32,000 bases of DNA from Promethearchaeota archaeon (GCA_016933055.1 JAFGBS010000001.1:150001-182000), one strand, 5' to 3'. Positions 24,836 to 27,130 are shown, counted from the first letter of the stretch. The notes: generated by a model from the sequence alone, not told the origin. A program made the numbers and translations.

Positions 24836-27130
24836 GTGTCACCCTTGCAGACCCGCCTATTTGTAGAGCCTATTGAGACTATCTCTAAGAGATGTCAGAT
24901 CTCTGAGGGCACTGCTAAAGAAATCAATATAAATACTGGAGAACTGGTTATTCTAACTGACCCAAATACAAATAAACAAATAACTTGCCCTGCGGATGTA
25001 TCCAGTGAAATTTTAGATTTTTCTATAAAAGTAGCGAGTGATATTTTAACTCAAATTGATTTTACAGGGATTGAGCTTATAGTTGCGAAAGCATCGGGTG
25101 GTATTCAACCATCAAGTGCACCGAAACCTACTTCAGGATTCACCACAATGCCTCAACGGCCGAGTACCACTCAGACTCTTCCTCAATCCGGATATACATC
25201 TACTCCACCCAAGCCACAAGTTAGTACCCCACCCCCCAAACCAATTTCACAGCCCACACCGCAACGACCTCCGCAATCAAGTCCAGAACCCGAAATTCAA
25301 ATGCCTCCTCCCCCCAAATTACCCCCACAACCCCCTCAAACTCAAACACCTCCTAAAATCACCCCTCAGCCGGGATTTTCACAAGTACCAACTCCAAAAG
25401 TATCTCCTCAACCACAACATGGATTTAGTCAAGTTCCTCCCCCACCTCAGTCTTCAATTCCATCTGGTATGACACAACCCCCACCAGGGATGCAGCACGC
25501 TTTTGATATGGATCAAGGCATGGGTATGGGAGATGGGATGGGTATGGCTCCTCCAGATCCTTATCCTGATAGAATTGATGTGAATAGTTTATCCCAACAG
25601 ATTCCTGGATCATTGGTATTAAATGTCAAAAAAACAATAGGGTGCAATGGTCGTGTCAAGTTAAATCCCCAGACCATCACTTCTCTACGGCTAGCACACG
25701 GCATGTTAGTGGCATGGGAAGATCCATTAACCCGTTCTCAAGGATCTGCTCGCATCACTGCAGATAACATTCCTCAATTTGAAGTTCACATGGATCTGGA
25801 TACTACCGAGGATACAAATATCCAAGCAGAGCAAATCGTGTTGTATAGTACAGAACCTCCTATTGAATTTCAAGATGAGATAACTTTAGAAGTGGTATCT
25901 CAGCCAGGATTAGATGGATTCATTATGGTAAATCCCCGAAACGCAGCCACTCTACAAGTAACTGAAGGAGAAGTTCTCTCTTTTGAAGACAATTTAACCG
26001 GTGCAATTGGTGCAGCGAAATTCAAGATTAAGGAAGATTTGCCCAATGATCAAGTGGTCATAGATGCAGAACTGATTGAAGCGTCGGGAGTAGGTTCCAT
26101 GGAGGTGGAACTTAAGAAGAATTTACGCCAGATTATTGCACTCCAAAGCGTGGAATTGGGTATCAGTCCCATAACTGGTGAGAATGTGTGGGAGATCATC
26201 TCCACTGCGCGCCAGAATATTAACAACATCAAAAGATGGCTTTCCAATTATATTATTTTCAAGGGTATAAAATTACGATGGGAGGCTGCAAATGTTGCTT
26301 GCGAGTTTTTAAGTACAATTCCAGATCTTATCGGAGATGTGTTCGCTACTATTACCGAGAATACTACCATCACATTAAGACCCACTGGGTTAGTGACTTT
26401 TAACGCGATACTCATAATAGATATTTCTCGAAGTATGATGGCGCGTGATGTAGAGGTTAAAAACATTGGTCCGGCTCTTGAAGGAATCAAAGCAGCTATG
26501 AGTGCGAAGGAGATTCAAGAATTCCTTGCTAAATTCAAACCAGGAGTACTTGTGCCACGGAGATATAGTGCAGCATTTGCAGCAATTTTGTTCCTTTCCG
26601 AAAAAGTCGGAAGAGGATTCGGTGAAAAAGTATCTATAATTCGATTTGCAGATGAAGCACAAGTTGTCCCATTTGAAGGAGGAATGCCATACATGGATAG
26701 TTCCTCGGGTGCCAAAGATGTTCTTGAAAATGCAGCTAAACTAATAGTAGAGCAAATAGGGAATGCTTATGGGCAAGCTACAAATCTTGGACTAGCTATG
26801 AGGAAAGCTCAAGAAATCCTGAAAACTTTTGAAGCGTTGGAAGTGAATGAAGAAGAAAAACAACCCACAATGATTGTATTACTCACTGATGGTATCCCGA
26901 CTGATGGAAATAAGTTCTTCGATTCTGTTAAAGACTTCAGTAAAAATCCAAATGTAGTGATGTATATTATCGGGTTAGGAAATCCGGATGATGTTGCAAT
27001 GAAACGTGCTGCACAGTTATGTGGTGGAGAATACTTCAAACCCGAGGATTCAGGTGAATTGCTTATTTGGTATTCTAAACGTGCACGTGATTTACAAGTT
27101 AAAATGAAAGCACATTCTCCATCCGAATAA
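24836..27130 (+). CDS. Cdc48-N-like double-psi-barrel (x3) / proline-rich / VWA domain protein
   Basis: aa 7-85, 260-338 and 349-428 resemble DPBB repeats; aa 433-515 resemble the CDC48_2 subdomain; aa 88-245 are Pro/Gln-rich; VWA with MIDAS DISRS, TNLGLAM and VLLTDG. GTG start. Confidence 0.8.
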   Translation: MSPLQTRLFVEPIETISKRCQISEGTAKEININTGELVILTDPNTNKQITCPADVSSEILDFSIKVASDILTQIDFTGIELIVAKASGGIQPSSAPKPTSGFTTMPQRPSTTQTLPQSGYTSTPPKPQVSTPPPKPISQPTPQRPPQSSPEPEIQMPPPPKLPPQPPQTQTPPKITPQPGFSQVPTPKVSPQPQHGFSQVPPPPQSSIPSGMTQPPPGMQHAFDMDQGMGMGDGMGMAPPDPYPDRIDVNSLSQQIPGSLVLNVKKTIGCNGRVKLNPQTITSLRLAHGMLVAWEDPLTRSQGSARITADNIPQFEVHMDLDTTEDTNIQAEQIVLYSTEPPIEFQDEITLEVVSQPGLDGFIMVNPRNAATLQVTEGEVLSFEDNLTGAIGAAKFKIKEDLPNDQVVIDAELIEASGVGSMEVELKKNLRQIIALQSVELGISPITGENVWEIISTARQNINNIKRWLSNYIIFKGIKLRWEAANVACEFLSTIPDLIGDVFATITENTTITLRPTGLVTFNAILIIDISRSMMARDVEVKNIGPALEGIKAAMSAKEIQEFLAKFKPGVLVPRRYSAAFAAILFLSEKVGRGFGEKVSIIRFADEAQVVPFEGGMPYMDSSSGAKDVLENAAKLIVEQIGNAYGQATNLGLAMRKAQEILKTFEALEVNEEEKQPTMIVLLTDGIPTDGNKFFDSVKDFSKNPNVVMYIIGLGNPDDVAMKRAAQLCGGEYFKPEDSGELLIWYSKRARDLQVKMKAHSPSE

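What the first reader, a model, noticed from the sequence alone, without database searches (positions are those of the whole stretch)
24836..27130. ATPase-less Cdc48-N (x3) - VWA fusion: candidate segregase/proteasome-type adaptor
Seen: aa 349-515 follow the archaeal Cdc48 N-domain pattern segment by segment (GFIMVNPRNAATLQVTEGEVLSFE ~ GIARIDP..M.KLG...GD.VEI; QVVIDAELIEASGVG ~ IIRIDG..R.NAGV; FLSTIP...FATITENTTITL ~ VVSTKP...VIITEDTEI). Two more DPBB-like copies lie at aa 7-85 and 260-338. A VWA domain with complete MIDAS (DISRS, T, TDG) replaces the AAA rings. Established: this N-domain fold is the substrate/cofactor-binding part of Cdc48/p97, NSF and Pex1 and the ubiquitin-binding part of Ufd1, while VWA domains serve as AAA+ adaptors (MoxR partners) and in Rpn10 and Sec23/24. 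I know of no described protein with this architecture. Inference: a multivalent substrate receptor for Cdc48/proteasome or for membrane-complex disassembly.
Basis: partly seen in the sequence, partly recalled or inferred. Interest (0 to 1): 0.85.

Follow-up and report, generated by a model that had tools for sequence, protein, structure and literature searches.

The report
ATPase-less Cdc48-N barrels fused to VWA
This Asgard-archaeal gene encodes a non-enzymatic binding protein made of three Cdc48-type barrels, a proline-rich tether and a metal-site VWA domain. Its core looks most like the scaffold end of the eukaryotic nutrient-signalling protein DEPDC5/Iml1, and it travels with an uncharacterised ligase/hydrolase pair and with gelsolin and Roadblock genes, not with Cdc48 or the proteasome.

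Summary
ORF 24836-27130 (+), 764 aa, folds confidently into:
- barrel 1
- a 147-aa linker that is 29% Pro
- barrel 2

There is no ATPase, signal peptide or TM segment.

The functional reading as a Cdc48/proteasome receptor gets no support from context.
- Across Asgard archaea the family co-occurs with a GCS2-type carboxylate-amine ligase and an Amidohydro_2 hydrolase, and is tightly linked to them. In this window they lie 3.5 kb upstream.
- The long form found here also sits behind a 1DGelX-type gelsolin and a Roadblock gene in 63 of 63 informative loci.
- In a sister genus where ligase and hydrolase were not found, the protein has drifted to 25% identity.

The nearest known architecture is the NTD-SABA module of DEPDC5/Iml1 (GATOR1). 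These are the best non-archaeal fold hits in PDB and AFDB. The Pfam IML1 model does not match, so homology is unproven.

I found no paper describing the family. This scan has already met it on other genomes, with the same readings.

Best reading (0.45): the non-catalytic target-binding subunit of an undescribed ligase/hydrolase module, extended in Lokiarchaeia-type genomes towards the actin/Roadblock machinery.

The parts
24836..27130 (+). Whole gene, 764 aa (P0001), GTG start. Soluble: no TM segment or signal peptide.
24836..25099 (+). Barrel 1 (aa 1-88), double-psi beta-barrel
   Evidence: pLDDT above 90. hhalign to barrel 3: 96%. Pfam Molydop_binding and CDC48_N hits in homologs.
25100..25540 (+). 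Disordered Pro/Gln/Ser/Thr-rich tether (aa 89-235): 29% Pro, four runs of 3 or more Pro
   Evidence: pLDDT below 50. Composition. In homologs it is 75-162 aa and 23-40% Pro.
25580..25849 (+). Barrel 2 (aa 249-338), double-psi beta-barrel, packed rigidly on the N domain
   Evidence: pTM 0.80. hhalign to barrel 3: 97%, E 5e-11.
25871..26131 (+). Barrel 3 (aa 346-432), the Nn (CDC48_N-type) subdomain
26132..26389 (+). Beta-clam (aa 433-518), the Nc (CDC48_2-type) subdomain
   Evidence: Aligned with p97 residues about 112-190 within the same superposition. No Pfam hit.
26390..27106 (+). VWA domain (aa 519-757), with a very conserved two-helix insert after the MIDAS loop (aa 534-575)
26420..26434 (+). 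MIDAS DxSxS motif (D529-I-S-R-S533). The other MIDAS residues are T649 (26780-26782) and D685 (26888-26890).
   Evidence: Invariant or over 90% conserved in alignment A2
24277..24669 (-). Roadblock/LC7 gene, 130 aa, a conserved neighbour. Inverted here; co-directional in 68 of 70 loci.
   Evidence: Pfam 5.5e-9. PDB Roadblock 1.9e-5. Synteny.
23277..24248 (+). 1DGelX-type gelsolin gene, 323 aa, a conserved neighbour
   Evidence: Profile against Loki 2DGel at 9.5e-12. Synteny. Architecture as in PMC7444086.
19547..21268 (-). GCS2/YbdK-type carboxylate-amine ligase, 573 aa, a family-wide partner
17987..19525 (-). Amidohydro_2 metal hydrolase, 512 aa, a family-wide partner

Best explanation
The protein is a soluble, non-catalytic, multivalent binding subunit.

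Its ancestral core is one Cdc48-type N domain plus a MIDAS VWA, about 420 aa. That core is the third component of an Asgard-wide gene module whose enzymes are a GCS2/YbdK-type ATP-dependent carboxylate-amine ligase and an Amidohydro_2 metal hydrolase.

Inferred mechanism: the VWA MIDAS, with bound Mg2+/Mn2+, captures an acidic side chain or free carboxylate of a partner or target. The N-domain cleft holds a peptide or small domain, as it does in p97, NSF and Ufd1. The protein would thereby present a target to, or read the product of, the ligase (writer) and hydrolase (eraser).

In the Lokiarchaeia-type order that includes this genome, the core gained two extra barrels. One of them sits on a 75-160-aa proline-rich tether. 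The gene also moved behind a 1DGelX gelsolin and a Roadblock gene, so the long form probably couples the module to actin-regulating or GTPase-platform proteins.

Shown: fold, MIDAS conservation, gene linkage, phyletic co-occurrence. Inferred: every binding step and the nature of the target.
For: Architecture.

Family range: 108 of 201 sampled Asgard genomes have a match. The short form (about 430-500 aa) occurs in families f6-f8, f19, f22, f26 and f27. The long form occurs in f1 and f2.

Linkage:
- In short-form loci the Amidohydro_2 gene ends 7-95 bp before the VWA gene on the same strand in 9 loci.
- A 980-1400-aa GCS2 fusion abuts it (gap -15 to 149 bp) in 9 loci.
- Same-contig distances taken from the coordinates are 1.7-2.9 kb (f6, f8, f19, f22), 6.5-12 kb (f7, f27), 8-55 kb (f2) and 3.5 kb here.

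Phyletic profile in the same 201 genomes, VWA family vs ligase:
- f2: 40/41 vs 39/41
- f7: 38/43 vs 34/43
- f8: 5/5 vs 5/5
- f19: 6/6 vs 6/6
- f22: 7/10 vs 8/10
- f27: 3/3 vs 3/3
- Neither was found in f3, f4, f5 (0/21), f13-f18 or f20.

Copy number: each of five f2 genomes checked for all three has one ligase, one hydrolase and one long-form gene.

Natural experiment: two genomes of the sister genus (92% and 87% complete) have no detectable ligase or hydrolase. In the one inspected (G089), the protein at the same gelsolin-Roadblock position is only 25% identical and has lost the Pro-rich tether, while Roadblock (58%) and gelsolin (40%) stay conserved. The other (G094) shows a similarly weak match to the family profile.

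Triad: gelsolin then Roadblock then VWA in 63 of 63 loci with at least 2 kb upstream.
Against: - No binding has been shown, and neither the substrate of the ligase nor that of the hydrolase is known.
- In the f2 majority of long-form genomes the ligase/hydrolase pair lies 8-55 kb away or on another contig. It is within 10 kb in only 4 of 80 long-form loci, so linkage there is loose.
- Related genomes are not independent samples, and the sister-genus case is a single evolutionary event.
- The very high conservation (50-65% identity across an order) could reflect a partner I have not identified.
Confidence: 0.45

Rival explanations
1. It is an archaeal counterpart, possibly the ancestor, of the DEPDC5/Iml1 NTD-SABA scaffold. 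It would organise Roadblock/longin-type proteins to regulate a small (Rag/Arf-like) GTPase, as GATOR1 does for RagA.
For: - PDB Foldseek top hits are Iml1/Sea1 (8adl_W) and DEPDC5 (9o5e_H, 9v0j_C, 7t3a_A), E 4e-11 to 2e-9, about 425-430 aligned columns, rmsd about 9 A.
- In AFDB Swiss-Prot, human and mouse DEPDC5 5-372 and fly Iml1 3-376 align to aa 349-717. Cdc48/VAT give rmsd about 19 A.
- In 2.3 million AFDB fold clusters, ranks 3-12 are mostly entries named DEPDC5/Iml1 or unnamed ones aligned over the same N-terminal range.
- A Roadblock gene is an obligate neighbour.
- NPRL2-like longins are reported in Asgard (10.1101/2020.10.19.343400).
Against: - Pfam IML1 (PF12257) finds nothing in this genome even at E 10 or in 40 homologs.
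- The N part alone ranks p97, NSF and PEX1 first, with DEPDC5 outside the top 50.
- TM is only about 0.43-0.5 over the module.
- There are no SHEN, DEP or CTD domains, and no GTPase in the conserved neighbourhood.
- Both domains are common, so the pairing could have arisen twice.
Confidence: 0.2
2. It is an actin-dynamics factor. The proline-rich tether recruits profilin-actin or an SH3-like protein, as FH1, VASP or WASP tracts do, and the protein acts together with the adjacent 1DGelX gelsolin on filaments.
For: - The gelsolin neighbour is present in 63 of 63 informative loci.
- Thor 1DGelX binds, nucleates and severs actin (PMC7444086).
- The tether is Pro-rich in 40 of 40 homologs.
- A divergent actin-like gene lies 3.7 kb downstream in 55 of 80 loci.
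Against: - The short form lacks the tether and the gelsolin neighbour, yet keeps the conserved core.
- The actin-like gene is absent from the locus here and in P. syntrophicum MK-D1.
- Pro runs are short, 0-5 runs of 3 or more Pro.
- The sister genus kept the gelsolin but let this protein drift and lose the Pro tract.
Confidence: 0.12
3. It is a regulatory or assembly factor for the amidohydrolase, by analogy with MIDAS VWA adaptors such as CbbO, NorD and CoxE, but working without a MoxR ATPase.
For: The hydrolase and the short-form VWA are co-directional with 7-95 bp gaps, which suggests co-translation and a complex. The MIDAS is strictly conserved.
Against: No AAA+ or MoxR gene is in any conserved neighbourhood examined. 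This reading does not explain the Cdc48-type N domain or the ligase.
Confidence: 0.1
4. One reading: a substrate or cofactor receptor that feeds Cdc48/PAN-proteasome or a membrane-complex disassembly machine.
For: - The N-domain fold is the cofactor-binding module of Cdc48, NSF, PEX1 and Ufd1.
- VWA is used by Rpn10 (established knowledge).
- One distant short-form locus carries two ubiquitin-fold genes inside the module.
Against: No Cdc48, PAN, proteasome, ubiquitin-system or ESCRT gene is among the conserved neighbours in 80 long-form and 21 short-form loci. The Ubl genes are lineage-specific.
Confidence: 0.06

Closest known systems
DEPDC5 / Iml1 (Sea1) N-terminal NTD-SABA module, scaffold subunit of GATOR1/SEACIT
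   Same: An NSF/Cdc48-N-like domain directly followed by a VWA/Sec23-trunk-like alpha/beta domain, in the same order and a roughly similar mutual position. These are the best non-archaeal fold hits in PDB, AFDB Swiss-Prot and AFDB clusters. Domain descriptions are in PMC8534245.
   Different: - No sequence match to Pfam IML1.
- No SHEN, DEP or CTD domains.
- Two extra barrels and a Pro-rich tether.
- An intact, conserved MIDAS. Whether SABA has one was not tested here.
- Neighbours are a ligase, a hydrolase, a gelsolin and Roadblock, not NPRL2/3.
N domains of type II AAA+ ATPases (p97/Cdc48/VAT, NSF/Sec18, PEX1/PEX6, SPATA5) and Ufd1
   Different: No AAA+ ring follows; a VWA does. Identity is about 9-15%. 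Pfam CDC48_N is not reached at threshold, and there is no CDC48_2 hit.
Classical MIDAS VWA domains (TFIIH p44/Ssl1, ITIH, bacterial VWA 4fx5, integrin I domains)
   Different: A family-specific, nearly invariant two-helix insert after the MIDAS loop and an EKxxRGxGEK segment. Cytoplasmic, and fused to Cdc48-type barrels.
Pupylation-type amide-tagging logic (PafA ligase, Dop hydrolase, Mpa recogniser)
   Same: Analogy only. A GS/GCS-fold carboxylate-amine ligase is genomically tied to a hydrolase and to a non-catalytic recognition protein. That PafA and Dop have a GS/GCS-type fold is established knowledge.
   Different: The hydrolase is an Amidohydro_2 TIM-barrel, not a Dop paralog. No Pup-like tag was identified. 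The recogniser has no ATPase. No biochemical data exist.

Membership tests
Cdc48/p97-type N domain (CDC48_N + CDC48_2 fold) | Double-psi beta-barrel (Nn) immediately followed by a beta-clam (Nc), forming one unit | tested here: met
Cdc48/p97-type N domain (CDC48_N + CDC48_2 fold) | Sequence match to Pfam CDC48_N / CDC48_2 at the gathering score | tested here: not met
   No hit on P0001. Best homolog scores 28 bits against a cut-off of 35.1. No CDC48_2 hit. A family profile does reach the Cdc48 N barrel at E 6e-5.
Cdc48/VAT/NSF type II AAA+ ATPases | N domain followed by D1/D2 AAA+ modules | tested here: not met
   No AAA Pfam hit. The C-terminal alpha/beta domain is a VWA.
VWA domain with MIDAS (PF00092) | Pfam VWA above the gathering score, and the VWA fold | tested here: met
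VWA domain with MIDAS (PF00092) | DxSxS, T and D metal-coordinating residues | tested here: met
   D529, S531, S533, T649 and D685 are invariant or over 90% conserved in 50 sequences down to 20% identity.
DEPDC5/Iml1 (Pfam IML1, PF12257) | NSF-N-like NTD followed by the Sec23-trunk-like SABA domain | tested here: met
   aa 349-717 align to DEPDC5 5-372 and Iml1 3-376, E 1e-11 to 1e-9, rmsd 8-9.5.
DEPDC5/Iml1 (Pfam IML1, PF12257) | Sequence match to the IML1 profile | tested here: not met
   No match at E up to 10 in the own genome. None in 40 homologs at E up to 0.1. A tandem-DEPDC5 chain scores only 23 bits over two copies.
DEPDC5/Iml1 (Pfam IML1, PF12257) | SHEN, DEP and C-terminal domains | tested here: not met
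   The protein ends about 10 residues after the VWA. No DEP hit.
DEPDC5/Iml1 (Pfam IML1, PF12257) | Complex with an NPRL2/NPRL3 longin pair, acting on a Rag GTPase | not testable with these tools
   The neighbour is a Roadblock protein, not an NPRL. No GTPase is in the conserved neighbourhood.
MoxR-associated VWA adaptors (CoxE, NorD, CbbO type) | Genomic pairing with a MoxR-class AAA+ ATPase | tested here: not met
   No AAA+ gene among the conserved neighbours.
Asgard GCS2-ligase / Amidohydro_2 / VWA gene module (undescribed; seen earlier in this scan) | Tight linkage and phyletic co-occurrence of the three genes | tested here: met
   In this window the ligase and hydrolase lie at 17987-21268 (-).

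The most novel reading that the evidence does not exclude
The N-domain-VWA core of this Asgard family is the evolutionary precursor of the NTD-SABA scaffold of DEPDC5/Iml1. If so, the architecture at the heart of GATOR1/SEACIT nutrient signalling predates eukaryotes, and it first worked alongside Roadblock-type proteins and a reversible amide-ligase/hydrolase system.
Probability: 0.22. Interest if true: 0.85.

Novelty: new variant of a known kind. Interest (0 to 1): 0.62.

Why it matters
[quoted passage not shown] This is one of their most conserved proteins of unknown function, at 50-65% identity across an order and single-copy. Relatives exist in several Asgard families, including the cultured Promethearchaeum syntrophicum MK-D1.

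- It shows that the Cdc48-type N domain can work as a free-standing binding module joined to a MIDAS VWA.
- It gives DEPDC5/Iml1, described as having a unique domain composition, its first prokaryotic look-alike.
- It ties an uncharacterised ATP-dependent amide ligase and a hydrolase to gelsolin and Roadblock genes.

If the ligase/hydrolase pair writes and erases a mark that this protein reads, that would be a new archaeal modification system. It would be testable in a cultured organism.

Tried and rejected
- Complex prediction: VWA core 240-764 with the gelsolin and Roadblock neighbours, using my own alignments A6/A5/A4. Score 0.00, verdict 'no answer'. This is no evidence either way.
- phmmer of aa 240-764 against PDB sequences: only marginal VWA hits.
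- Pfam IML1 against the own genome: nothing at E up to 10.
- NCBIfam: nothing informative for this protein, the hydrolase, the 600-aa neighbour, the gelsolin or Roadblock.
- VIA alignment of the full model: filled by VWA hits, so it says nothing about DEPDC5. DEPDC5 is not among the top 50 for the N part alone.
- The search for related loci with the broad alignment A2 failed because no conserved stretch was found. The close alignment A1 was used instead.
- ESM Atlas feature search returned only the short-form archaeal cluster and generic VWAs.
- Ubiquitin-fold genes of locus L011: no BLAST relatives in the other loci or in this genome, so they were dropped as a general feature.
- Actin-like neighbour: present in 55 of 80 loci, but not in this genome's locus or MK-D1's. 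It is not treated as part of the core.
- Literature: no paper combines Asgard with DEPDC5 beyond naming GATOR1 subunits. None describes the ligase-hydrolase-VWA set. PMC5975964 is not held.

Full report
**What is there.** The window (GC about 0.35) comes from a 3.76-Mb Asgard genome that is 91% complete. ORF 24836-27130 (+) encodes 764 aa. It has no TM segment or signal peptide; the maximum Kyte-Doolittle 19-mer is 1.43. Pfam finds only a VWA domain (31 bits against 23.8) and a weak Molydop_binding hit in the first 60 residues.

**Fold.** I folded the full length using an alignment of 40 homologs (A1). The model has confident domains at 1-88, 249-338, 348-428, 433-516 and 523-752, and a disordered stretch at 89-235. 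Each of the three small domains has the double-psi beta-barrel strand/helix order.

At sequence level, a profile of the wider family (A2) reaches designed DPBB proteins (7e-6) and the yeast Cdc48 N barrel (6e-5). Barrels 1 and 2 are profile-profile homologs of barrel 3 (96% and 97%). Barrel 1 of some homologs passes Pfam Molydop_binding, a DPBB family.

**Relatives.** There are 457 close homologs (62-93% identical over aa 250-764), named only 'VWA domain-containing protein' from Promethearchaeota and other Asgard bins. 131 loci occur among GTDB species genomes, including Promethearchaeum syntrophicum MK-D1.

An exhaustive search of 1.84 billion representatives found only 115 relatives. Many are about 410-500 aa and cover only aa 350-760, that is, one N domain plus the VWA.

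In 201 sampled Asgard genomes the family is found in 108:
- Long form, single copy: the window's own order (f2 40/41, f1).
- Short form, 1-5 copies: f6, f7, f8, f19, f22, f26, f27.
- Not found in f5 (0/21) or about 15 other families.

**Context 1, specific to the long form.** In 63 of 63 loci with at least 2 kb upstream, a gelsolin-domain gene and a Roadblock gene precede the VWA gene. They are co-directional except here and in one close relative, where Roadblock is inverted.

The gelsolin profile hits Loki 2DGel at 9.5e-12. Its architecture (gelsolin domain, linker, C-terminal domain) is that of 1DGelX, which in Thorarchaeota binds, nucleates and severs actin (PMC7444086). The Roadblock profile hits solved Roadblock proteins.

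Further genes follow in 45-58 of 80 loci: YjeF, an ACT-like 134-aa gene, a 266-aa gene, a divergent actin-like gene, and 863-aa and 178-aa genes. In this genome and in MK-D1 only the triad stays together.

**Context 2, family-wide.** Short-form genes sit 7-95 bp downstream of an Amidohydro_2 gene, and abut a 980-1400-aa GCS2/YbdK-type ligase fusion.

The ligase's family-level distribution in the same 201 genomes mirrors that of the VWA family. Each of five f2 genomes checked has one ligase, one hydrolase and one long-form gene, on the same contig 8-22 kb apart in three of them. Coordinates put further f2 genomes at 19-55 kb.

In this window both enzymes lie 3.5 kb upstream, at 17987-21268 (-). 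MK-D1 shows the same arrangement.

Two genomes of the sister genus lack a detectable ligase and hydrolase. The triad protein inspected there (G089) is only 25% identical to this one and has lost the Pro-rich tether, while its Roadblock and gelsolin neighbours remain 58% and 40% identical. I read this as relaxed constraint after loss of the enzymatic partners. It is one event, so it is suggestive only.

**Closest known.** With the whole model, the top PDB Foldseek hits are Iml1/Sea1 and DEPDC5 of SEACIT/GATOR1. In AFDB Swiss-Prot, aa 349-717 align to DEPDC5 5-372 at rmsd 8-9 A, against about 19 A for Cdc48/VAT. Among 2.3 million AFDB fold clusters, DEPDC5/Iml1 N-terminal entries from diverse eukaryotes dominate the ranks directly after two archaeal relatives.

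The review PMC8534245 describes the DEPDC5 NTD as NSF/Sec18-N-like and SABA as Sec23-like, and calls the domain composition unique.

Against membership:
- Pfam IML1 does not match.
- The N part alone prefers p97, NSF and PEX1.
- The VWA prefers classical MIDAS VWAs.
- SHEN, DEP and CTD domains are absent.

So it looks like the DEPDC5 scaffold module but cannot be filed as an IML1 family member. I put homology at about 0.2.

**Mechanism.** I commit, at 0.45, to this reading: a non-catalytic binding subunit of the ligase/hydrolase module. The MIDAS would take a carboxylate ligand and the N-domain cleft a peptide or small domain. In this order the protein is extended by two barrels on a proline-rich tether and is operonically tied to gelsolin and Roadblock. 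All binding steps are inferred.

The last has no contextual support.

**Novelty and prior notes.** I found no paper describing the family or the module. This scan has met both before on other genomes and reached the same DEPDC5, triad and ligase-hydrolase-VWA readings. I reached them independently before reading those notes. Part of one earlier report (e1-2536621) later fell, and I do not know which part. I therefore rely only on the triad count I made myself, and I treat the actin link as inference.

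Noticed in passing
window 17987-23121 (-): Three co-oriented genes: Amidohydro_2 (512 aa), a GCS2/YbdK-type ligase (573 aa) and a 600-aa protein with no Pfam or NCBIfam hit. The first two are the family-wide partners of the VWA protein. The 600-aa gene has relatives in only 3 of 80 loci.
   Followed up: partly
window 24277-24669 (-): The Roadblock gene is inverted relative to 68 of 70 other loci. 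That leaves a 166-bp divergent intergenic region before the VWA gene.
   Followed up: partly
window 27134-28315 (+): A methyltransferase (UPF0020 / N6_N4_Mtase hits) starts 4 nt after the VWA stop codon. This neighbour is present in only 2 of 80 related loci.
   Followed up: partly
L108:8181-10436 (-) (G089, sister genus): The same architecture at the same gelsolin-Roadblock position, but only 25% identical. The tether is K/Q/E-rich instead of Pro-rich, and the MIDAS reads D-L-T-R-S / S / D. No GCS2 ligase or Amidohydro_2 homolog was found in that genome (92% complete) or in its congener (87% complete).
   Followed up: yes
L011:8043-9003 (+): Two tandem genes with ubiquitin-fold N-termini (Pfam ubiquitin on one) lie between the GCS2 ligase and the amidohydrolase of a short-form module. 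They have no BLAST relatives in the other loci.
   Followed up: partly
e.g. G137:C111:94408-95403, G038:C1:2363027-2364169: In families f7 and f19 a second, about 890-aa open frame with a weaker match to the N-domain-VWA profile (E 1e-30 to 1e-43) lies about 4 kb from the short-form gene. It is a larger paralogous architecture that I did not examine.
   Followed up: no
L042, L047 (JAZGCJ010000095.1, JAZGCJ010000050.1): Two short contigs of a bin labelled Thermodesulfobacteriota bacterium carry this Asgard protein at 63-64% identity. They are probably mis-binned Asgard contigs rather than a bacterial copy.
   Followed up: no
L005:11638-12822 (+) and equivalents in 55 of 80 loci: A divergent actin-family gene (Pfam Actin 1e-47, only 26-29% identical to this genome's actins) and an 863-aa gene of no known family follow the triad in most f2 genomes. 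They are missing from this genome's locus.
   Followed up: partly
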